A DNA stretch of 25,844 bases from Bacilli bacterium (GCA_045653225.1 JAZOLP010000093.1:1-25844); one strand, 5' to 3'; shown: positions 1 to 7,400, numbered from the stretch's first letter. Notes: generated by a model not told the origin, from the letters alone. Program-made: numbers and translations.

Positions 1-1
1 T

Positions 2-472
2 AATGGTCTTGCAACTATTCGATATCTCAATGAAGGAAAAGACGAAGAACTTTTAAAACAATACAATATTTATTGGAGCGCTGTTCATAAGGGCGCAATG
101 TTCGATGCCAGATGCTTTAATATTCCAAAAGAAGAAGTAACCAATCTCATCTTTTGGCGTCAGCTTGACGCGGCACGAAATAGTATGCAAATGGTGGGTC
201 AGGCTTATTTCTCTCACAAAGAGCTTCAAAACAAATCTTGTAGTGATATTCAAAATATGCTTATGGAAAAATACAATATAAATTGGAATGATTTCCCAAC
301 TACTCAAAAAAGAGGTAGTTGTGCAACTAAAGTTCATTATCAAAATCCAGAAGTAGATATAAAAGATGGGGCTGATATTTGTTCCTCTTGGTTTATTGAT
401 AATGAAATTCCTCAGTTTAAAGGTGAAGATAGACAATATATTGAACAACTTATCAATTTTGAGGAGGAATAA
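2..472 (+). CDS. Thg1-like protein (tRNA-His guanylyltransferase / 3'-5' nucleotidyltransferase family), 5'-truncated by window edge
   Basis: The open frame runs in from the window edge. The C-terminal half aligns, by my recollection of eukaryotic Thg1, to ...GFDGRVV.YP....L.DYLSWRQ.D...NN...YNINYNNEP.M.RKGS.... The window shows AMFDARCFNIPKEEVTNLIFWRQLDAARNS...MLMEKYNINWNDFPTTQKRGS. Confidence 0.6.
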   Translation, partial: NGLATIRYLNEGKDEELLKQYNIYWSAVHKGAMFDARCFNIPKEEVTNLIFWRQLDAARNSMQMVGQAYFSHKELQNKSCSDIQNMLMEKYNINWNDFPTTQKRGSCATKVHYQNPEVDIKDGADICSSWFIDNEIPQFKGEDRQYIEQLINFEEE

Positions 473-710: not shown

Positions 711-739
711 GAAGAACTCATAATTATTATAAAAGATAA

Positions 740-776
740 AAACCTTTCTAAATAAAGAAAGGTTTTTTTATTTTTA
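740..776 (+). terminator. rho-independent terminator
   Basis: The stem aaacctttc/gaaaggttt with loop taaataaa is followed by tttttttatttttat. Confidence 0.6.
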
Positions 777-834: not shown

Positions 835-990
835 ATGAGAACAATAATGTTGGTAACAAATGCGATTTTAAGTGCTGTATCTTGCGCGGGAATTATAGTG
901 AATTTAGTAATGACACATTTTGGATATGCGTGGTTATGTGTTATTCCAATGGTGTATGGAATATTTAATATGATTGCTATAGACGAATAA
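835..990 (+). CDS. small hydrophobic membrane protein (51 aa)
   Basis: It is the first ATG after the promoter motif, preceded by gagagtga. The translation MRTIMLVTNAILSAVSCAGIIVNLVMTHFGYAWLCVIPMVYGIFNMIAIDE is mostly hydrophobic. Confidence 0.45.
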   Translation: MRTIMLVTNAILSAVSCAGIIVNLVMTHFGYAWLCVIPMVYGIFNMIAIDE

Positions 991-1016
991 TATTTGTATA
1001 AAAGGAGTTGATTGTT

Positions 1017-1466
1017 GTGCGTATTTGGCATAAAGATTTAATTTCAGTTTTACCAAGAGAACAATTAGTAGCGCAATGGAGAGAATGTAGCGCAATCGCG
1101 GGAGCCATTAAAAAGAATGGTGAACCAAATCATTTGTTAGTAAATAAAATTATGGATTTTAATTATAATCATTTTATCACATACAGTAAGTTAGTTCGTG
1201 CGGAAATGACCAAAAGAGGATACACAACAATGAACTCTGTTATGGATAAAATCGAAAGTCCATTAATAGAAGAAAGAGTAGAAATTCCGTTTAAAGAACT
1301 TTATTCTTCTTGGCACAATATGAGATATTTAAAACAGTGCTATTATAACTTACAAGAAAAGTTTGATTGCGGTGGTATCTCAAAAGAAGATTGGGCAAGA
1401 ATCGAAAAGAAGATGCATAATTTAGAGGAAGAAAGATATAATCAAATGCAGCTGGGAGGAGAATAA
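1017..1466 (+). CDS. denV: pyrimidine dimer DNA glycosylase (T4 endonuclease V / DenV-like)
   Basis: RIWHKDLISVLPREQLVAQWRECSAIAGAIKK...FITYSKLVRAEMTKRGY is collinear with the T4 EndoV N-terminus ([33 protein letters not shown]...[25 protein letters not shown]). The start is non-ATG: GTG at 1017 lies 9 nt after AAAGGAG, and the tracked TTG at 1008 abuts the RBS. Confidence 0.6.
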   Translation: MRIWHKDLISVLPREQLVAQWRECSAIAGAIKKNGEPNHLLVNKIMDFNYNHFITYSKLVRAEMTKRGYTTMNSVMDKIESPLIEERVEIPFKELYSSWHNMRYLKQCYYNLQEKFDCGGISKEDWARIEKKMHNLEEERYNQMQLGGE

Positions 1467-1469
1467 ATA

Positions 1470-1859
1470 ATGTTAAAAAATAAAACGAAATTTGATACTT
1501 GGATTGTTACTAATCAAGAAGATTTTAAAAAGAACAAAAAAGATTTACTATCTAAAAAATTACCAATTATGTTTTCAGATGATGAAGATAGCTATTATGA
1601 TGAAGTTGGCGGGTATCATTCTTGCGGAACTGGTTGGAATCCCAATGGTATGTGGTGCGGTGAATGTACGAGCTTCAGTTGTCGTGGTTGTTCAAGTGAA
1701 CACAAATGTATAAAAACATTTTTAATTGTTGCAAAAGACGAAGATTATCCAGAAGTAAGAACAACTATAGAAGCTATTGATTTGCAGCACGCAAGACTAG
1801 AAGCTTTCAATAAATATCCAGAATATCACGAAATAGGAGTATGGGAGTGGGAAGAATGA
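1470..1859 (+). CDS. hypothetical Cys-rich protein (129 aa)
   Basis: ORF with a GGGAGGAG RBS. It carries the Cys cluster CGTGWNPNGMWCGECTSFSCRGCSSEHKC. Confidence 0.55.
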   Translation: MLKNKTKFDTWIVTNQEDFKKNKKDLLSKKLPIMFSDDEDSYYDEVGGYHSCGTGWNPNGMWCGECTSFSCRGCSSEHKCIKTFLIVAKDEDYPEVRTTIEAIDLQHARLEAFNKYPEYHEIGVWEWEE

Positions 1860-2017
1860 TAACAATACAAAAAGCTACTGATATGATACTCGAAAGAGTA
1901 GATAGAATTATCGAAATAATTAACACACCTGATTTCTATCAGTTTTTAACTAGTACTGGCGGAGATATAGAAACATATAGAGTGTATAAAAAAGATGGAA
2001 GGATTGGTATAAAATGA
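1856..2017 (+). CDS. small hypothetical protein (53 aa)
   Basis: ATGA overlaps both the upstream and the downstream ORF and fills an otherwise non-coding gap. No RBS was evaluated. Confidence 0.3.
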   Translation: MITIQKATDMILERVDRIIEIINTPDFYQFLTSTGGDIETYRVYKKDGRIGIK

Positions 2018-2184
2018 CATTTACAGAAATTTTAGAATCATTAAAAAGAAGTTGCACACAAGTATTTTGGGAATCTAACCACTTTGCAAAAGAACACGCA
2101 GACACACTTTTGAAATGTGCAACAGAAATTTATATTGCACAGGAAGGCAAAACTCAAATTATTGTAAAGAGAGAGGAGAAATAA
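2014..2184 (+). CDS. small hypothetical protein (56 aa)
   Basis: It has an ATGA overlap with the previous small ORF and ends 2 nt before pncA. The tight packing is typical of phage genes. Confidence 0.3.
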   Translation: MTFTEILESLKRSCTQVFWESNHFAKEHADTLLKCATEIYIAQEGKTQIIVKREEK

Positions 2185-2185
2185 T

Positions 2186-2725
2186 ATGTCAAAAATGTTA
2201 ATTGTAATTGATATGCAAAATGATTTTGTAACAGGTAGTCTTGCAAACCCAGACGCACAAGCTATTATACCAAATATTCAAAAGAAAATTGAAGAATATA
2301 AGAAGAATGGTGATGATATTATCTTTACAAGAGACACTCATACAGTTTCTTATTTAGGTAGTGCGGAAGGTCAGAAACTTCCTGTTGAACATTGTATTGA
2401 TGGAACAAAAGGTTGGGTAGTTGTTGATGAATTAAATCATCCAGAGTATAAGCATATTAACAAATCAACTTTTGGATATCCTTATTGGGGATATGAAGAA
2501 ATGCCAGAAGAAGTAGAATTAGTTGGTACTTGTACAGATATCTGTGTTGTTTCAAATGCTATTCTTATTAAAACACATTTTCCAGATACAAAAATAGTTG
2601 TCGACGCGGCGTGCTGTGCGGGTACCACTCCAGCAAATCACACAGCCGCGCTGATGACAATGAAAGCTTGTCAGATAGATGTAATTAACGAAGGTAATAC
2701 TGTTATAGGCGGAAAGAGAGAGTGA
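2186..2725 (+). CDS. pncA: nicotinamidase / isochorismatase-family cysteine hydrolase
   Basis: The N-terminus MLIVIDMQNDFV and the catalytic-Cys motif GTCTDICV fit the isochorismatase fold. The gene sits immediately upstream of pncB. Confidence 0.75.
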   Translation: MSKMLIVIDMQNDFVTGSLANPDAQAIIPNIQKKIEEYKKNGDDIIFTRDTHTVSYLGSAEGQKLPVEHCIDGTKGWVVVDELNHPEYKHINKSTFGYPYWGYEEMPEEVELVGTCTDICVVSNAILIKTHFPDTKIVVDAACCAGTTPANHTAALMTMKACQIDVINEGNTVIGGKRE

Positions 2726-2731
2726 AGTATA

Positions 2732-3925
2732 ATGATGAAATTAAGTCCTATTGTTGTATCTTTATTAGATACTGATTTATATAAATTTAATATGAATATG
2801 GTAATGTTTCATAAACATACCAATTTAAATGGTGTATATATTTTCAAATGTAGAAATGAAAACATTGTATTTACTTCTGAAATGGTAGAAGAAATTAACG
2901 CACAGATTGATCATCTTTGTACTTTAAGATTTACAGGCGAAGAATTAAATTATTTAAATTCATTAAGATTTATGAAATCTGATTATATTGAATTTCTTCG
3001 CTTATGGCACCCACTCCGCGACTATGTAAAATGTTGCGCGGACGGCAAAGGTGGCTTGTTTTTAGAAGTAACTGGTCCGTTATTTAGTGCTATGCAATTT
3101 GAAATTTATTTACTTGAAATTATTAACGAAGTTTACTTTCGTATGCAATATAACTATTTAGATTTAATAGAATCCGCAAAAGAAAAACTCGAACTTAAAT
3201 TAAAAGGTTTTGAAGAAGGTAAATATAATTTTAATTTCGCAGAATTTGGTTGCCGCAGAAGATTAAGCAGAGAGTGGCAGGATTATGTTTTATCAAAGCT
3301 TCTTACAACTGGACATTGTGTTGGTACTTCAAATGTTTATCTTGCTATGAAATATAAAGTTAAACCTATTGGTACTTATGCACACGAGTATGTTCAAATG
3401 TATCAGGGTATCCCGGGTGTAACTCTTGCCTATACAAATAAAATGGCAATGGAAGAATGGTTTGATGAATTTCAGGGTGACAACGGTACAGCTTTAACAG
3501 ACACTCTTGGAACAGATTTATTCTTAAGAGACTTTAATAAATTACAGGCTATGTGCTATACAGGAGTAAGACACGATAGCGGAGACCCAATAGAATGGGG
3601 TAATAAAATAATTGACCATTATATTAAACTCGGTATCGATCCAAAAACTAAAACTTTATTATTTAGTGACAGTCTTAATTTTGATAAGGCTCAAGAAATT
3701 TATGATTATTTCAAAGATAAAATAAATGTAAGCTTTGGTATTGGAACTTATTTAAGTAATGATACAAATGTTGATGCATTAAATATTGTTATTAAATTAC
3801 AGTATGTAAATGGACATCCAGTAGCAAAGATTAGTGACACACCTGGTAAAGCAATGTGTCAGAATAATGTTTATTTAAAATACTTAAAGAACGCAGTAGC
3901 GTATAGATTGGAGGAGAATATTTAA
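2732..3925 (+). CDS. pncB: nicotinate phosphoribosyltransferase
   Basis: It is collinear with E. coli PncB: LLDTDLYKFNM, FGCRRRLSREWQ, VGTSNVYLA, TYAHEYVQ, ALTDTLGTDLFLRDF, RHDSGDPIEWG, KTLLFSDSLNFDKA, SFGIGT, LNIVIKL..NGHPVAKISDTPGK. It is 397 aa, like PncB and unlike the larger Nampt. Confidence 0.85.
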   Translation: MMKLSPIVVSLLDTDLYKFNMNMVMFHKHTNLNGVYIFKCRNENIVFTSEMVEEINAQIDHLCTLRFTGEELNYLNSLRFMKSDYIEFLRLWHPLRDYVKCCADGKGGLFLEVTGPLFSAMQFEIYLLEIINEVYFRMQYNYLDLIESAKEKLELKLKGFEEGKYNFNFAEFGCRRRLSREWQDYVLSKLLTTGHCVGTSNVYLAMKYKVKPIGTYAHEYVQMYQGIPGVTLAYTNKMAMEEWFDEFQGDNGTALTDTLGTDLFLRDFNKLQAMCYTGVRHDSGDPIEWGNKIIDHYIKLGIDPKTKTLLFSDSLNFDKAQEIYDYFKDKINVSFGIGTYLSNDTNVDALNIVIKLQYVNGHPVAKISDTPGKAMCQNNVYLKYLKNAVAYRLEENI

Positions 3926-4482
3926 TGACAGGAGTAATTTTATTTCGTGCGCAACCATTTCACAATGGACATTTACATATGATTAAAAAGGCTTGTCAAG
4001 ATATGTATCAAATAAATGGCGCATTATATATTTTAGTGGGTAGCGCAGATAAAGTAGGAACAAAAAGAAATCCAATTCCAATTGACTTAAGAATTAATAT
4101 GATAGAGGAAAGTTTAAAAGAAGCTTTAACAGAAGAAGAATATAATTGTGTTTTTGTTTATCCTCTTGCTGATTTAGACGATGAAGCCAATAATACTCAT
4201 AGTTGGGGTAGTTATCTTTACAAAGCTATGCGTGAAGTTTCCGCAGACGAAGATTTTATTATCTACTATAGCGACAACCCAAACATTATGTTAAGTTGGT
4301 TTAATGATGAAATTAGAGAACATATTGCTTTTAAATTTTTACCAAGATATGATGATATTTGTGCGACAGAAGTGCGCAAATGTATTGAAAAAGATTGGTC
4401 AGCAACTCTTTCTACTATTGTACCTGCTCCAGTTTATAATAGAAGAAAATTATTAAAAAAATATATTGAAGAAGGAAAATAA
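3925..4482 (+). CDS. nicotinamide/nicotinate mononucleotide adenylyltransferase (HxGH cytidylyltransferase-like, NadM/NadR type)
   Basis: ILFRAQPFHNGHLHMIK carries the (H/T)xGH nucleotidyltransferase signature in the NadM/NadR context GRFQPFHxGH. The gene lies between pncB and nadE. Confidence 0.7.
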   Translation: MTGVILFRAQPFHNGHLHMIKKACQDMYQINGALYILVGSADKVGTKRNPIPIDLRINMIEESLKEALTEEEYNCVFVYPLADLDDEANNTHSWGSYLYKAMREVSADEDFIIYYSDNPNIMLSWFNDEIREHIAFKFLPRYDDICATEVRKCIEKDWSATLSTIVPAPVYNRRKLLKKYIEEGK

Positions 4483-4484
4483 TA

Positions 4485-5255
4485 ATGAATATAGAAAAAA
4501 CAAAAAGAGAGATTGTTCAATGGATTAAAGACTGGTTCGCGGAAAATGGACCAGATTGTAACGCGATTATTGGCATTAGTGGCGGGAAAGATAGCTCTGT
4601 CGCGGCCGCCCTTTGCGTAGAAGCTCTGGGCAAAGATAGAGTTTATGGTATTATGATGCCAAATGGCAAGCAAGTGGATATAGATGATTCTTATAAGATT
4701 TGTAAACATTTAGATATTCCGTGTATGACAGCAAATATTGAACCTATCTATAGTACTTTTGTAAAAGCCATTACTTATAATGACGCACATTGGTTTAATG
4801 GAAAATGGAATGTTCTTATACCAGGTGGACTTTCTGAGCAGGCAGAAACAAACCTTCCTCCCCGTATTCGTATGACCACACTCTATGCTATCTCTCAATC
4901 TCTTAATGGTAGGGTAGTTTGTACAGATAATCTTTCAGAATCATATATAGGTTATTCTACTCGTTGGGGAGATAATGTAGGTGACTTCGCGCCTCTTGCT
5001 CATTTAACAAGTGAAGAAGTTGTTGCTCTTGGCGATGCTTGCGGCCTCCCGTACGAATTAACACACAAAACCCCAACAGATGGACTTTGTGGAAAAACAG
5101 ATGAAGAAAATTTTGGTTTTACATATGAAACATTGAATAAGTATATTTTAACGGGACAGTGCGAAGATACAGAAGCAAAAGAAAAAATAGATGCAATGCA
5201 TTTAAAAAATGCTTTTAAATTAAAACCTATTCCCGCGTATATCCCACATAGATAG
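4485..5255 (+). CDS. nadE: NH3-dependent NAD+ synthetase
   Basis: It has the PP-loop IGISGGKDSSVAAALC (SGGxDS), and its length and collinearity match NadE. Confidence 0.85.
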   Translation: MNIEKTKREIVQWIKDWFAENGPDCNAIIGISGGKDSSVAAALCVEALGKDRVYGIMMPNGKQVDIDDSYKICKHLDIPCMTANIEPIYSTFVKAITYNDAHWFNGKWNVLIPGGLSEQAETNLPPRIRMTTLYAISQSLNGRVVCTDNLSESYIGYSTRWGDNVGDFAPLAHLTSEEVVALGDACGLPYELTHKTPTDGLCGKTDEENFGFTYETLNKYILTGQCEDTEAKEKIDAMHLKNAFKLKPIPAYIPHR

Positions 5256-5267
5256 GAGTGAACAAGT

Positions 5268-5717
5268 ATGAAAGTAATCGATAGTTTTGAAGGCGAGTTT
5301 GAATTTTTAAGTAACTTTTTTTATAGTCCGCTATACTTTGCTGGTATTTGGTTTTCAACAGTAGAGCATTTCTTTCAAGCTAATAAATTATTTTCAAAAA
5401 ACGAAGAAATGTTTTATAAAATTGCTACTGCAGACACTCCTGGTAAAGCAAAAAGATTAGGTAGAAAATGTGAATTGCGCGAGGATTGGGATAACATAAA
5501 AGATACAGTTATGTTAATTGCTTTAAGAAAAAAATTTAGCAATTCTGTGTTAAAAAAGAAGTTACTTGCTACTGGCGATGCGCTCTTAATAGAAGGCAAT
5601 ACCTGGCACGATAACTATTGGGGCGATTGTAAATGTGAAAAATGCAAAGATATAAAAGGAGAGAATAGACTTGGACAGCTTTTAATGCAAGTAAGAGAAG
5701 AGTTGAAAAATAAATAA
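5268..5717 (+). CDS. NADAR / YbiA-like (DUF1768) domain protein
   Basis: FLSNFFYSP...FSTVEHFFQA...GNTWHDNYWG match the YbiA/NADAR family signature E..FLSNF ... W..N.WG. Confidence 0.65.
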   Translation: MKVIDSFEGEFEFLSNFFYSPLYFAGIWFSTVEHFFQANKLFSKNEEMFYKIATADTPGKAKRLGRKCELREDWDNIKDTVMLIALRKKFSNSVLKKKLLATGDALLIEGNTWHDNYWGDCKCEKCKDIKGENRLGQLLMQVREELKNK

Positions 5718-5721
5718 AATA

Positions 5722-5755
5722 ATAATATTATATATATACAAAGTAAAGAGAGGAG
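5722..5755 (+). promoter_or_regulatory. promoter/RBS motif, copy 2 (ataatattatatatatacaaagtaaagagaggag)
   Basis: It is related to the 781 and 7934 motifs and sits directly upstream of the RNA ligase ATG. No terminator precedes it. Confidence 0.35.
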
Positions 5756-5762
5756 AATTAAA

Positions 5763-6926
5763 ATGATAATCAATGACAAAAGAGCTTTAGCTTATACTGC
5801 ACGAGTTGGAGAAATTTCAAAAATCGAAGGCGCAGACAATATCGAGCTTATCACAGTTTTAGGCTGGAAAGTTATTGCTAAAATCGGAGAGTTTAAAGAA
5901 GGCGACCTTTGTGTTTACTTTGAAATCGATTCAAAGCTACCAGAAGCAGAATGGTCAGAGTTTATGAGAGCAAGACACTTTAAAGTTAAAACTATGAAAC
6001 TTGGTAAATTTAAAGTGATTTCACAGGGTTTAGCTTTACCTGTATCTGCTTTTGATAAAACAATACCGACAGAAGAAGGCATCGATGTTACAGAATTACT
6101 TGGAGTTACTTATTCTGTAGAAGAAGATAATGTTCGTAAATCAAACGGAGATCCAAATGTTAAGTATCGTTCTATGGCGGCCCGCCATCCAAAATTATTC
6201 AAACAGCCTTGGGCAAGATGGATGATGAGACGCGCGTGGGGTAGAAAGGTTATGTTTCTTTTCTTTGGTAGAAAAAAAGATAACCCTAAAAAATTCCCTT
6301 CTTTTGTTTCTAAAACAGATGAAGAAAGAGTTGAAAACCAGCCTTGGAGAATAGGCGATGGTCAGACATATTTATGCACAGAAAAACTCGATGGTACATC
6401 TTGTACTTACGCTCTTGAAAGAAAAGGTAGAAATAGATTTGAATTTTATGTTTGTTCAAGAAACATAAGACAGAAAGATGAAAAACAGTCTTGCTACCAC
6501 GACCATAATATTTACTGGGATTTAGCTTTTAAATATAATATCGAAGAACATTTAAAAGATTACCTTAATATTCACAAAGATTACAAATGGGTTTGTATTC
6601 AGGGCGAAGGTGTTGGCGCTGTTCAGGGCAATCCACTTAAATTAAAAGAAGATGACTTATATGTGTTTAACTTTATTACTTCTAAAAATGGTAGACACAA
6701 CTCTTTTGAAGGAAGAGATATTATAGAAAGCTGGAAAATGAAATGGGTTCCAATCCTTGGTCAGGTTCAGATGCCAGATACTATGGAAGAACTCAAAGAA
6801 CTTGCTACTGGTAAATCAGTAGTTAACCCAGATGTAATGAGAGAAGGTCTCGTATACAGAACAATGGACGGAAAAGATTCATTTAAAAATGTTTCAAGAG
6901 AATATTTATTAAAACATAATATGTAA
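5763..6926 (+). CDS. ATP-dependent RNA ligase (nucleotidyltransferase superfamily)
   Basis: It has the lysine-adenylylation motif CTEKLDGTSC (KxDG). The N-terminal region resembles an OB/tRNA-binding-like domain (GADNIELITVLGWKVIAK) of the Pab1020/DRB0094-type RNA ligases. Confidence 0.7.
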   Translation: MIINDKRALAYTARVGEISKIEGADNIELITVLGWKVIAKIGEFKEGDLCVYFEIDSKLPEAEWSEFMRARHFKVKTMKLGKFKVISQGLALPVSAFDKTIPTEEGIDVTELLGVTYSVEEDNVRKSNGDPNVKYRSMAARHPKLFKQPWARWMMRRAWGRKVMFLFFGRKKDNPKKFPSFVSKTDEERVENQPWRIGDGQTYLCTEKLDGTSCTYALERKGRNRFEFYVCSRNIRQKDEKQSCYHDHNIYWDLAFKYNIEEHLKDYLNIHKDYKWVCIQGEGVGAVQGNPLKLKEDDLYVFNFITSKNGRHNSFEGRDIIESWKMKWVPILGQVQMPDTMEELKELATGKSVVNPDVMREGLVYRTMDGKDSFKNVSREYLLKHNM

Positions 6927-6944
6927 GAAAGAGAGGATAAAATT

Positions 6945-7400
6945 ATGCTATTCTGGTTATTTATAATTTTAACTGTAGTTGGTATCGTTTTATGGGTTTT
7001 AGGCAGCAAAGACTGGAAATACGGTAGTTTTATGTGGGAATATGATGAAGGTTTCTGTCTCTCAGGCACAGTGCTTTCCGCAGTTGGTGCAATAGTTAGT
7101 ATTATAATGATTGCAATAATTAGTTGCTCATATTGTGGTAGCTCGGCATATGTCGCGGAAGACCAAGCAACATATGATTCGTTAATTTTTAAATTAGAAA
7201 ATACTGATTGCCGTGATGAACTTGGCTTACTCAATAAAGAAATTATAGATGAGGTTCAAGCTTGGAACGAAACATTATCCTACCACAAAACAATTCAAAG
7301 AGATTTTTGGATGGGCATTTTTTACCCAAATATGTATGATGAATTTAAATTAATTGATTTAAATAGATTTAAAATTTCACAAGGAGAATACAATGAATAA
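6945..7400 (+). CDS. hypothetical membrane protein (151 aa)
   Basis: An AGAGAGGA RBS precedes the ORF. There are two hydrophobic segments, LFWLFIILTVVGIVLWVLG and AVGAIVSIIMIAIISC. Confidence 0.55.
   Translation: MLFWLFIILTVVGIVLWVLGSKDWKYGSFMWEYDEGFCLSGTVLSAVGAIVSIIMIAIISCSYCGSSAYVAEDQATYDSLIFKLENTDCRDELGLLNKEIIDEVQAWNETLSYHKTIQRDFWMGIFYPNMYDEFKLIDLNRFKISQGEYNE

What the first reader, a model, noticed from the sequence alone, without database searches (positions are those of the whole stretch)
2186..5255. Complete four-enzyme Preiss-Handler NAD+ salvage cassette (PncA, PncB, NaMN adenylyltransferase, NadE) encoded by a phage
Four consecutive, translationally coupled genes convert nicotinamide to nicotinate, then to NaMN, then to NaAD, then to NAD+. 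That rebuilds NAD+ from the nicotinamide released by NAD+-cleaving immune effectors such as TIR, SIR2 and SEFIR domains (Thoeris, DSR, prokaryotic Argonaute-associated effectors). The phage NAD+ reconstitution pathways I know of (NARP1: ADPR-PP synthetase plus Namat; NARP2: Nampt plus Nmnat) use different chemistry. A PncA-PncB-NadM-NadE route would be a distinct, third solution. Alternatively it may simply boost NAD+ for phage ligase or nucleotide metabolism.
Basis: partly seen in the sequence, partly recalled or inferred. Interest (0 to 1): 0.75.

Follow-up and report, generated by a model that had tools for sequence, protein, structure and literature searches.

The report
Phage nicotinamide-to-NAD+ salvage operon
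A large gut phage carries four adjacent genes that can probably rebuild NAD+ from nicotinamide; similar clusters, and the idea that they counter NAD+-destroying defences, were published in 2024 but remain untested.

Summary
Window 2186-5255 carries four tightly packed + strand genes:
- PncA, with the catalytic triad and all three metal ligands present.
- Type-I PncB, above NCBIfam's equivalog cut-off.
- A stand-alone NadM-type adenylyltransferase, supported by sequence and by predicted fold.
- A single-domain, ammonia-dependent NadE.

A NADAR gene follows 12 nt downstream and is linked to these genes in many related phages.

The window is phage DNA. Relatives lie on virus-classified contigs of 157-402 kb, and the window also encodes an endolysin.

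The same gene set recurs, in shuffled order, in several divergent phage lineages. It is also present in the cultured Sinorhizobium jumbo phage Phosso.

Cultured rumen Butyrivibrio carry nrtR-pncA-NMNAT-pncB-nadE. PncA, PncB and NadE there are about 50% identical to the phage proteins. The phage cassette therefore looks like a regulator-less copy of a host-clade salvage operon.

"NARP3" now names PnuC+NadR. Preiss-Handler clusters in gut jumbo phages, and the counter-defence idea, were published in 2024. No experiment has tested either. The order of the last two steps (via NaAD, or via NMN as in Francisella) cannot be resolved from sequence.

Verdict: a real, probably functional pathway and a new member of a known kind, of moderate interest.

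The parts
2186..2725 (+). PncA-type nicotinamidase (179 aa): nicotinamide -> nicotinate + NH3
   Evidence: Pfam Isochorismatase, 92 bits. Best solved relative is P. horikoshii pyrazinamidase/nicotinamidase 1ILW/1IM5, E 2.4e-11. In that alignment, window D9/K93/C120 match the D10/K94/C133 positions and D50/H52/H69 match the D52/H54/H71 positions. That these positions are the triad and the metal ligands is from my memory of the structure paper. PHROG 19305, 122 bits.
2732..3925 (+). PncB, type-I nicotinate phosphoribosyltransferase (397 aa): nicotinate + PRPP (+ATP) -> NaMN
   Evidence: TIGR01514 equivalog 422.6 bits (cut-off 269.55) and PRK05321 483 bits (cut-off 379). PDB 1YIR P. aeruginosa PncB2, E 1e-85 over residues 7-388; the GT-AHE segment aligns (GTYAHEY against GTMAHEW). 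The Nampt-type model PRK09198 scores only 14.7 bits.
3925..4482 (+). Stand-alone NadM-type NMN/NaMN adenylyltransferase (185 aa)
   Evidence: FRAQPFHNGH (HxGH motif) and C-terminal ATEVR are visible in the sequence and conserved across the family. All 12 PDB hits of the family profile are NadM- or NadR-type NMN adenylyltransferases. AlphaFold model has pLDDT 88.9. The top 15 Foldseek PDB hits are archaeal, Synechocystis or Francisella NadM, with TM-scores 0.69-0.76 normalised to the query and up to 0.79 normalised to the target. Preference for NaMN or NMN is not determinable from sequence.
4485..5255 (+). Single-domain, NH3-dependent NadE (256 aa): amidates NaAD to NAD+ (or, less likely, NaMN to NMN)
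   Evidence: TIGR00552 166.6 bits (cut-off 63.65). PP-loop GISGGKDS is visible in the sequence. No glutaminase domain at 256 aa. Best PDB matches are 2E18 (P. horikoshii) at 3e-31 and 3FIU (Francisella) at 2.8e-30.
5268..5717 (+). NADAR/YbiA-type domain protein (149 aa), 12 nt downstream; a linked accessory gene, probably an ADP-ribose-adduct hydrolase
   Evidence: Pfam NADAR 103.5 bits. TIGR02464 102.5 bits (cut-off 73.7). It lies next to NadE or NadM in L005/L024, L008-L010, L011, L015-L018 and L020-L022.
738..767 (+). Terminator-like hairpin followed by an AT-rich stretch; possible upstream boundary of the long transcription unit that holds the cassette
   Evidence: 12-bp stem followed by a T-run. 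From 835 to 7909 the genes follow one another with gaps of 45 nt or less, or overlaps, apart from the stretch before the 1008/1152 start. This is a consensus scan only, not shown to be functional.

Best explanation
The cassette is a functional, phage-borne, four-step deamidating salvage pathway that turns nicotinamide into NAD+ during infection.

Steps:
1. PncA deamidates nicotinamide to nicotinate.
2. PncB joins nicotinate to PRPP to give NaMN.
3. The NadM-type enzyme adenylates NaMN to NaAD.
4. NadE re-amidates NaAD with free ammonia to give NAD+.

The cassette resembles the nrtR-pncA-NMNAT-pncB-nadE salvage operon of rumen Lachnospiraceae but has two differences. It lacks the ADP-ribose-responsive repressor NrtR, and it uses a phage-family NadM in place of the bacterial NadR-type adenylyltransferase. 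It would therefore be expressed from phage signals, independent of host control.

The most likely selective benefit is to keep NAD+ available when host NADase effectors (TIR, SIR2 and similar) cleave it to ADP-ribose plus nicotinamide. The adjacent NADAR probably handles ADP-ribose adducts.

Shown: gene presence, active-site residues, family and fold membership, and conservation across phages.
Inferred: catalytic activity, substrate order, expression and the counter-defence benefit.
For: Conservation:
- Contigs about 90% identical in DNA show the same order with NADAR.
- L007 has the same order. L012 and L014 have pncA-DUF5662-pncB-x-nadM-nadE. L005/L024 have Thg1-pncA-nadM-DUF5662-Macro-pncB-nadE-NADAR.
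- An independent instance exists in the cultured phage Phosso: NadE, PncB, Nudix, NMNAT and isochorismatase.

Long residence in the phage: GC3 of the cassette genes is 0.17-0.25, against 0.19-0.25 for the other sampled window genes.

Host-clade operon with NrtR. No NrtR homologue is found in the window or in the phage loci.

Support for a conflict role:
- PncA makes nicotinamide, the NADase product, the entry point.
- The cassette is linked with NADAR, and in relatives with Macro.
- In the syntenic island of related megaphages (L015-L022), the same NadM, NadE, NADAR and PncA genes sit beside a NAMPT-like and a PRPS-like protein and a SIR2. These are the protein types used by the experimentally validated NARP1 and NARP2 (abstracts).
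- The hypothesis has been stated in print (PMC11662467).
Against: - No activity, expression or phenotype data exist for any phage Preiss-Handler cluster.
- The route costs PRPP plus about three ATP per NAD+, so it is not obviously fast enough to outrun an NADase.
- Bacteria of the likely host clade already have the same pathway, which fits a simple dosage boost as well as it fits counter-defence.
- The neighbours in the window are mostly RNA/DNA repair and housekeeping-like genes, not recognised anti-defence genes.
- The NadM assignment is below NCBIfam's equivalog cut-off (53.8 against 181).
- Orthologous NadM proteins (51% identical) occur with NAMPT-like enzymes in relatives, so this family may prefer NMN.
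Confidence: 0.6

Rival explanations
1. General metabolic booster. The cassette simply raises NAD+ supply for a very large phage's own needs, such as NAD+-dependent ligase, ADP-ribosyltransferases, sirtuins, redox enzymes and RNA/DNA repair. It has no specific relation to NADase-based immunity.
For: Relatives encode NAD+ consumers near the island: SIR2 in L016 and a PARP-domain protein in L012. The window's neighbourhood is rich in repair functions: Thg1-like, pyrimidine dimer glycosylase, RNA ligase, metallophosphoesterase, AAA_33 kinase and PIN-PhoH. [quoted passage not shown] NadE alone is widespread in cyanophages, a pelagiphage and Bacillus phage G.
Against: No NAD+-consuming enzyme was recognised in the 25.8 kb window itself. 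The RNA ligase matches an ATP-dependent family, TIGR02306, but below its cut-off. Including PncA and linking to NADAR/Macro point to recycling of NAD+ cleavage products rather than to net synthesis. The two readings are not mutually exclusive.
Confidence: 0.3
2. Same net pathway, but with the last two steps inverted as in Francisella tularensis. NadE would act as an NMN synthetase (NaMN -> NMN) and NadM would then adenylate NMN to NAD+.
For: NadM-family enzymes use NMN efficiently. In Francisella, replacement of NadD by NadM goes with a NadE that is an NMN synthetase (PMC3376133). The Francisella enzymes are among the best solved relatives of both phage proteins: NadE 3FIU at 2.8e-30, and NadM 2QJT/2R5W. 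Orthologous NadM (51% identical) sits with NAMPT-like enzymes in L015-L022, so this family probably accepts NMN.
Against: The archaeal NadE, which pairs with NadM, is a plain NAD synthetase with no NMN synthetase activity, and archaeal NadM is bifunctional (PMC3376133). P. horikoshii NadE (2E18) is an equally good match. I recall three Francisella residues as specificity determinants: Y27, Q133 and R236. Across 11 phage and Butyrivibrio NadEs, the Y27 position is never Tyr (mostly Asn in the MAFFT alignment), the R236 position varies, and only Q133 is mostly kept. The residue list is from memory, so this test is weak.
Confidence: 0.25
3. The window is not phage but a bacterial chromosome segment or another mobile element, and the cassette is an ordinary bacterial salvage operon.
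For: PncB relatives of 68-79% identity occur on contigs binned into Clostridia, Ruminococcus or Lachnospiraceae MAGs. True bacterial operons with the same functions exist.
Against: - Relatives are in IMG/VR on contigs of 157, 299, 332 and 402 kb.
- The cassette genes, NADAR and the RNA ligase match PHROG families.
- An Amidase_2 endolysin lies at 24593-25438.
- All genes run in one direction, with many small ORFs that have no family.
- Neighbouring genes are phage-typical: RNA ligase PHA02142, PhoH and a DNA pol III alpha on L012.
- No NrtR regulator is present.
- The binned contigs are most simply mis-binned phage.
Confidence: 0.03

Closest known systems
Preiss-Handler NAD+ gene clusters of 'NAD-jumbo phages' (Microbiome 2024, PMC11662467; e.g. 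Kuafu_71 pncB-nadD-nadE)
   Same: A phage-encoded, physically clustered set of pncB, an adenylyltransferase and nadE. It comes from animal-gut metagenomes and has been proposed to supply NAD+ and possibly counter NAD+ depletion.
   Different: - Here the adenylyltransferase is NadM-type, not NadD.
- PncA is part of the operon, so the entry point is nicotinamide.
- NADAR is linked.
- The likely host is Clostridia rather than Bacteroidota.
- Genome size cannot be read from a 25.8 kb window.
Bacterial NrtR-controlled salvage operon nrtR-pncA-NMNAT-pncB-nadE of rumen Butyrivibrio/Lachnospiraceae (e.g. B. hungatei DSM 14810, locus L051)
   Same: The same four enzymatic functions lie in one operon. 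PncA, PncB and NadE are 44-52% identical to the phage proteins. The gene order of the L005-type phages (pncA-nadM...pncB-nadE) mirrors the bacterial order.
   Different: The phage lacks the NrtR repressor and shows no excess of the Butyrivibrio operator-like repeat. Its adenylyltransferase is a distant, non-orthologous NadM-type protein, 21% identical to the bacterial NadR-type one.
NARP2 (Nampt + Nmnat; e.g. vibriophage KVP40), an experimentally validated phage NAD+ reconstitution pathway
   Same: It starts from nicotinamide and PRPP, ends at NAD+, and uses a NadM-family adenylyltransferase. T4-like phage NMNAT/Nudix proteins are detectable homologues at 27-32% identity.
   Different: NARP2 has two steps through NMN. 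The window has four steps through nicotinate, NaMN and NaAD. Its phosphoribosyltransferase is PncB-type, not Nampt. Its NadM has no Nudix domain. The extra enzymes PncA and NadE are required.
Sinorhizobium jumbo phage Phosso (PV764938) NAD cluster
   Same: A cultured phage with NadE, PncB, NMNAT and an isochorismatase-family protein within 6 kb.
   Different: It is an unrelated phage of an alphaproteobacterial host. PncB is only 30% and NadE only 28% identical. A Nudix gene is interposed. The order and strand differ, and no NADAR is seen in the stretch.
NARP1 (Adps + Namat) and NARP3 (PnuC + NadR)
   Same: Phage pathways that restore NAD+.
   Different: The window has no PRPS-like, NAMPT-like, PnuC or NadR-kinase gene. 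The substrates also differ: ADPR-PP for NARP1 and imported nicotinamide riboside for NARP3.

Membership tests
Four-step deamidating nicotinamide salvage (PncA + Preiss-Handler enzymes) | Nicotinamidase: isochorismatase fold with Asp-Lys-Cys triad and Asp-His-His metal site | tested here: met
   alignment to P. horikoshii PncA (1ILW/1IM5). Window D9, K93 and C120 align with D10, K94 and C133. Window D50, H52 and H69 align with D52, H54 and H71. The roles of those residues are from my memory of the structure paper. The full-length PncA equivalog model PRK11609 matches only partially (32 bits against a cut-off of 174).
Four-step deamidating nicotinamide salvage (PncA + Preiss-Handler enzymes) | Nicotinate (not nicotinamide) phosphoribosyltransferase | tested here: met
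   TIGR01514 scores 422.6 against 269.55 and PRK05321 scores 483 against 379. The Nampt-type model scores 14.7 bits. PDB 1YIR at 1e-85.
Four-step deamidating nicotinamide salvage (PncA + Preiss-Handler enzymes) | Adenylyltransferase that accepts NaMN | not testable with these tools
   Membership of the NadM family is met by sequence and by fold. Archaeal NadM is bifunctional for NMN and NaMN (PMC3376133). The preference of this phage family cannot be read from sequence.
Four-step deamidating nicotinamide salvage (PncA + Preiss-Handler enzymes) | NAD synthetase with PP-loop; its ammonia or glutamine source | tested here: met
   TIGR00552 scores 166.6 against 63.65. The SGGKDS motif is visible. 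It is a single 256-aa domain without a glutaminase domain, hence the ammonia-dependent type. NaAD versus NaMN preference is unresolved.
Phage NAD+ reconstitution pathways (NARP) as counter-defence systems | Encoded by a phage | tested here: met
   IMG/VR relatives on contigs of 157-402 kb, PHROG matches and an endolysin.
Phage NAD+ reconstitution pathways (NARP) as counter-defence systems | Restores NAD+ and phage replication in cells with an NADase defence | not testable with these tools
   This needs expression and infection assays. No published test for a PncA/PncB/NadE route was found.
NARP1 | PRPS-like Adps plus NAMPT-like Namat | tested here: not met
   No homologue in the window of the PRPS-like or NAMPT-like proteins of L016. 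The Pfam scans of window ORFs show no such domains either.
NARP2 | Nampt (nicotinamide phosphoribosyltransferase) plus Nmnat | tested here: not met
   An Nmnat-like NadM is present, but the phosphoribosyltransferase is PncB-type.
NARP3 | PnuC transporter plus bifunctional NadR | tested here: not met
   No PnuC domain and no NadR kinase domain in the Pfam scans of window ORFs. The definition is from PMC13464706.
'NAD-jumbo phage' Preiss-Handler cluster (PMC11662467) | Phage genome above 200 kb encoding every gene of the pathway | tested here: inconclusive
   All pathway genes are present. Genome size is unknown for the window. The closest contigs (L008-L010) are 15 kb or shorter. More distant relatives lie on contigs of 157-402 kb.

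The most novel reading that the evidence does not exclude
The cassette, together with the linked NADAR, is a fourth, chemically distinct phage NAD+ reconstitution system. It would be captured from the host clade's own ADP-ribose-inducible salvage operon and freed from NrtR control, and it would actually defeat TIR/SIR2-type NAD+-depleting immunity in gut Clostridia. A possible further twist is that the NadM/NadE pair runs through NMN, as in Francisella.
Probability: 0.3. Interest if true: 0.6.

Novelty: new member of a known kind. Interest (0 to 1): 0.38.

Why it matters
If active, the cassette shows that phages of anaerobic gut Firmicutes can regenerate NAD+ by the long, deamidating route. 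Validated phage pathways so far use NMN, ADPR-PP or imported nicotinamide riboside.

The system is compact (four or five genes) and directly testable against NADase defences.

It also gives a clear case of a phage copying a host-clade operon while dropping its repressor.

Practical uses would be two. It would extend anti-defence annotation, since no listed homologue of its NadM carries an informative name apart from one JGI NMNAT label. It would also offer a module for engineering phages against hosts with NAD+-depleting immunity.

Tried and rejected
1. Near-identical DNA search of 2186-5717 in the phage collection found no match.
2. Exact-protein look-up of PncB is not on record.
3. tRNA scan of the window found none.
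4. Search for host NrtR control. No NrtR homologue is in the window or the phage loci. The Butyrivibrio promoter repeat AAATGAAACAAA occurs 11 times at up to 2 mismatches, against 17.5 expected by chance. The idea that the phage operon keeps the host operator is not supported. The true host's operator is unknown, so the test is weak.
5. Promoter and terminator scans gave promoter-like counts at chance level (46 against 48.7). Only the hairpin at 738-767 looked worth noting.
6. Francisella-type specificity residues in NadE gave an inconclusive result that leans against. Sorci et al. 2009 (PMC2651253) is not held, so the residue list rests on memory.
7. Supplementary tables of PMC11662467 are not held. 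I could not check whether this exact phage lineage or a pncA-containing cluster is listed there.
8. The two Aravind-lab surveys (PMC9503650, PMC7824862) mention only the NadV/NadM/NadR route, not PncA, PncB or NadE.
10. I considered whether PncB might be recently acquired. This is rejected: its GC3 matches the rest of the window, and phage PncBs form a 68-79% identity group distinct from the roughly 50% bacterial ones.
Full report
**What is there.**
The window is AT-rich (about 31-39% GC by 1-kb bins). All long ORFs are on the + strand. Gene starts are preceded by AG-rich, GGAGG-like ribosome-binding sites. They are separated by 6 nt, a 1-nt overlap (TAATG) and 2 nt. A fifth gene, 5268-5717, follows after 12 nt. 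GC3 of these genes is 0.17-0.26. The other sampled window genes give 0.19-0.25, so nothing suggests a recent import.

**Enzyme by enzyme.**

*ORF 1 (PncA).* It is an isochorismatase-family protein (92 bits). Its best solved relative is the Pyrococcus horikoshii pyrazinamidase/nicotinamidase (1ILW/1IM5, E 2.4e-11). In that alignment D9, K93 and C120 of the phage protein align with D10, K94 and C133. D50, H52 and H69 (the TRDTH and EHC segments) align with D52, H54 and H71. I recall these as the catalytic triad and the metal ligands. That is the signature separating nicotinamidases from other isochorismatase-fold hydrolases.

*ORF 2 (PncB).* It is unambiguous. It exceeds the curated cut-offs of the PncB models TIGR01514 (422.6 against 269.55) and PRK05321 (483 against 379). 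It barely touches a Nampt-type model (14.7 bits). It aligns end to end with P. aeruginosa PncB2 (1YIR, 1e-85).

*ORF 3 (NadM-type adenylyltransferase).* This was the weakest assignment by HMM. CTP_transf_like gives 36 bits, and arch_NMN_Atrans gives 53.8 bits, below its cut-off.
- A homologue search found at least 203 clusters at 90% identity. All listed ones come from metagenome-derived data, and almost none carries an informative name. Several sit on contigs of 140-240 kb.
- A profile of this family hits only NadM- and NadR-type NMN adenylyltransferases in the PDB.
- An AlphaFold model (pLDDT 88.9) has NadM enzymes as its 15 best Foldseek PDB matches. These are from M. thermoautotrophicum, M. 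jannaschii, Synechocystis and Francisella. TM-scores are 0.69-0.76 normalised to the query and up to 0.79 normalised to the target.
- The HxGH motif (FRAQPFHNGH) and the C-terminal T..R motif are invariant in the family.

*ORF 4 (NadE).* It exceeds the TIGR00552 cut-off (166.6 against 63.65). It has the SGGKDS PP-loop. It is a single 256-aa domain, so it is the ammonia-dependent type.

**Is it a phage?**
- Relatives of PncB and NadM are in IMG/VR on contigs of 157, 299, 332 and 402 kb.
- The cassette proteins, NADAR and the RNA ligase match PHROG families.
- An Amidase_2 endolysin lies at 24593-25438.
- Related contigs carry a DNA polymerase III alpha subunit and similar large-phage genes.
- Contigs about 90% identical in DNA (L008-L010) show the same order, pncA-pncB-nadM-nadE-NADAR.

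**Conservation.**
Searching the window proteins against all fetched loci with tblastn shows the four functions recurring in several divergent lineages, in different orders:
- L007: pncA-pncB-nadM-nadE.
- L012 and L014: pncA-DUF5662-pncB-small ORF-nadM-nadE.
- L011: pncB-x-nadM-NADAR-nadE.
- L005/L024: Thg1-pncA-nadM-DUF5662-Macro-pncB-nadE-NADAR-phosphoesterase.

NADAR is next to NadE or NadM in about half of the lineages.

In a group of megaphage contigs (L015-L022, up to 402 kb) the syntenic island holds PncA, a PRPS-like protein, YqeY, SIR2, a NAMPT-like protein, Macro, NadE, NADAR, an AAA_28 kinase and NadM. Downstream it shares the phosphoesterase, AAA_33 kinase, flotillin and PIN-PhoH genes with the window. 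The island is therefore old, and the phosphoribosyltransferase in it differs between lineages. PRPS-like and NAMPT-like proteins are the building blocks of the validated NARP1 and NARP2 (abstracts). This is circumstantial support for a role in conflict.

Independently, the cultured Sinorhizobium jumbo phage Phosso has NadE, PncB, Nudix, NMNAT and an isochorismatase within 6 kb.

**Origin.**
In the species-representative genome collection, PncB hits fall into two groups.
- Hits of 68-79% identity lie on contigs binned into Clostridia MAGs from ruminant and horse gut. One is a 297 kb contig. These are most simply mis-binned phage.
- Hits of about 50% identity are in cultured Butyrivibrio and other Lachnospiraceae.

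In those bacteria PncB is flanked by PncA and NadE homologues that are 44-52% identical to the phage proteins. In B. hungatei DSM 14810 the operon reads NrtR-like repressor, PncA, a 170-aa NadR-type NMN adenylyltransferase domain, PncB, NadE. The phage cassette thus has the same functional composition as a host-clade salvage operon. That independently supports reading the embedded adenylyltransferase as the pathway's third enzyme.

There are two differences. The phage has no NrtR. Its adenylyltransferase is a distant, non-orthologous NadM-type protein, 21% identical to the bacterial one. I looked for retention of the Butyrivibrio operator-like repeat in the window and found no excess over chance.

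**Mechanism and open step order.**
The net reaction is nicotinamide + PRPP + ATP + NH3 -> NAD+. The default order is NaMN -> NaAD (NadM) -> NAD+ (NadE).

NadM-family enzymes use NMN well, and Francisella pairs NadM with a NadE that amidates NaMN to NMN (PMC3376133). The inverted order is therefore possible. Francisella NadE (3FIU) is among the two best solved relatives. However, the archaeal NadE, which also pairs with NadM, is a plain NAD synthetase. The three Francisella residues I recall as specificity determinants are not conserved as a set in phage or Butyrivibrio NadEs. I put the inverted order at about 25%.

**Function.**
I consider the enzymatic reading well supported (about 0.85). The biological role is inferred.

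Arguments for counter-defence:
- The pathway enters at nicotinamide, which is the NADase product.
- The host regulator has been lost.
- The cassette is linked with NADAR and Macro, both ADP-ribose-processing domains.
- Related islands carry NAMPT-like and PRPS-like genes.

Arguments against:
- The route has a high ATP cost and four steps.
- It is redundant with the host-clade operon.
- The neighbourhood is mostly repair and housekeeping genes.
- There are no experimental data.

The main rival is a general NAD+ boost for a large phage's own NAD+-consuming enzymes (SIR2 and PARP in relatives).

**Comparison with the literature.**
- NARP1 is Adps plus Namat, and NARP2 is Nampt plus Nmnat.
- The Microbiome 2024 paper on gut jumbo phages reports 174 phages with complete salvage or Preiss-Handler pathways. 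It reports clustered pncB-nadD-nadE genes (Kuafu_71). [quoted passage not shown]
- Two broad surveys from the Aravind group describe only the NadV/NadM/NadR route.
- I found no paper testing a phage PncA/PncB/NadE route.

**Verdict.**
The idea is not new in kind. This is a new member of the already reported class of phage Preiss-Handler clusters. It has a somewhat different make-up: PncA is included, the adenylyltransferase is NadM-type rather than NadD, NADAR is linked, and the likely host is Clostridia. I also add a plausible origin from a host-clade NrtR operon. Interest is moderate. It would rise if the cassette were shown to defeat NADase immunity.

Noticed in passing
window 1-472, 5763-6926, 8084-8752, 13279-13764, 13757-14359, 16740-17960: An RNA-repair-like gene set surrounds the cassette. 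It comprises a Thg1-like 3'-5' polymerase (cut by the left end; 60% identical to the full-length L005 protein), a PHA02142/DRB0094-type RNA ligase, a calcineurin-like phosphoesterase, an AAA_33 kinase, a 200-aa protein with a weak Metallophos_2 hit in the L008 orthologue, and a PIN-PhoH protein. Thg1 and the phosphoesterase travel with the NAD genes in relatives.
   Followed up: partly
window 9842-12289: An 815-aa protein with major-vault-protein shoulder and repeat domains plus an SPFH-like stretch. It is conserved in L008/L009. A 2023 preprint describes the first viral MVPs in human-gut phages (10.1101/2023.11.10.566534).
   Followed up: partly
window 14372-15862: A flotillin/SPFH (Band_7 plus Flot) protein of 496 aa. 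It is 52% identical to one in the L016 megaphage island and is syntenic with the AAA_33 and PIN-PhoH genes.
   Followed up: no
window 8825-9820 (or 8876-9820): A papain-family (C1) peptidase fused to an S-layer homology domain. This hints at a Gram-positive host with an S-layer. It might be a lysis or entry enzyme.
   Followed up: no
window 25584-25844 (cut by the right end): The N-terminal part of a DUF5662 protein, 47% identical to the L005 protein. In many relatives DUF5662 sits between PncA and PncB (L001-L004, L012, L014). It may be a further, uncharacterised partner of the NAD genes.
   Followed up: partly
window 4663-4843 and 5726-7381 compared with L008: Mosaicism between relatives about 90% identical in DNA. 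PncB is 99% identical in protein, but NadE only 75% and NADAR 78%. The 387-aa RNA ligase plus the next ORF are replaced in L008 by a different 460-aa RNA-ligase-like protein.
   Followed up: partly
L016 71-8564 (also L015, L017-L018, L020-L022): Megaphage NAD island with PncA, a PRPS-like Pribosyltran protein, YqeY, SIR2, a 515-aa NAMPT-like protein, Macro, NadE, NADAR, an AAA_28 (NRK-like) kinase and NadM, but no PncB within 8 kb. The PRPS-like plus NAMPT-like pair could be a NARP1-type Adps/Namat pair. This was not tested.
   Followed up: partly
L012 13688-14902; L011 3822-5072: A PARP-catalytic-domain protein of 404 aa lies 4 kb downstream of the NAD genes in L012. An OrfB_IS605/Cas12f-like TnpB gene lies inside the NAD island of the 214 kb contig of L011.
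   Followed up: no
L011 9017-9985 and L012 8579-9544: The NadE of these phages carries an extra N-terminal segment of about 70 aa that is rich in Cys (CGCGSNC...CNACKS) and looks like a zinc-ribbon. It is absent from the window's NadE.
   Followed up: no
L051 3226-6996 (Butyrivibrio hungatei DSM 14810) and L053, L054, L057, L059, L063, L049: Upstream of nrtR the promoters carry two copies of a repeat like AAAAATGAAACAAAA flanking the -35/-10 region. Other Lachnospiraceae show TAGT-N-ACTA-type palindromes there. These are presumably NrtR operators.
   Followed up: partly
window 1008-1466: A pyrimidine dimer DNA glycosylase (Pyr_excise, 60.9 bits), of the T4 endonuclease V type, lies upstream of the cassette. 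It is conserved in L008-L010.
   Followed up: no
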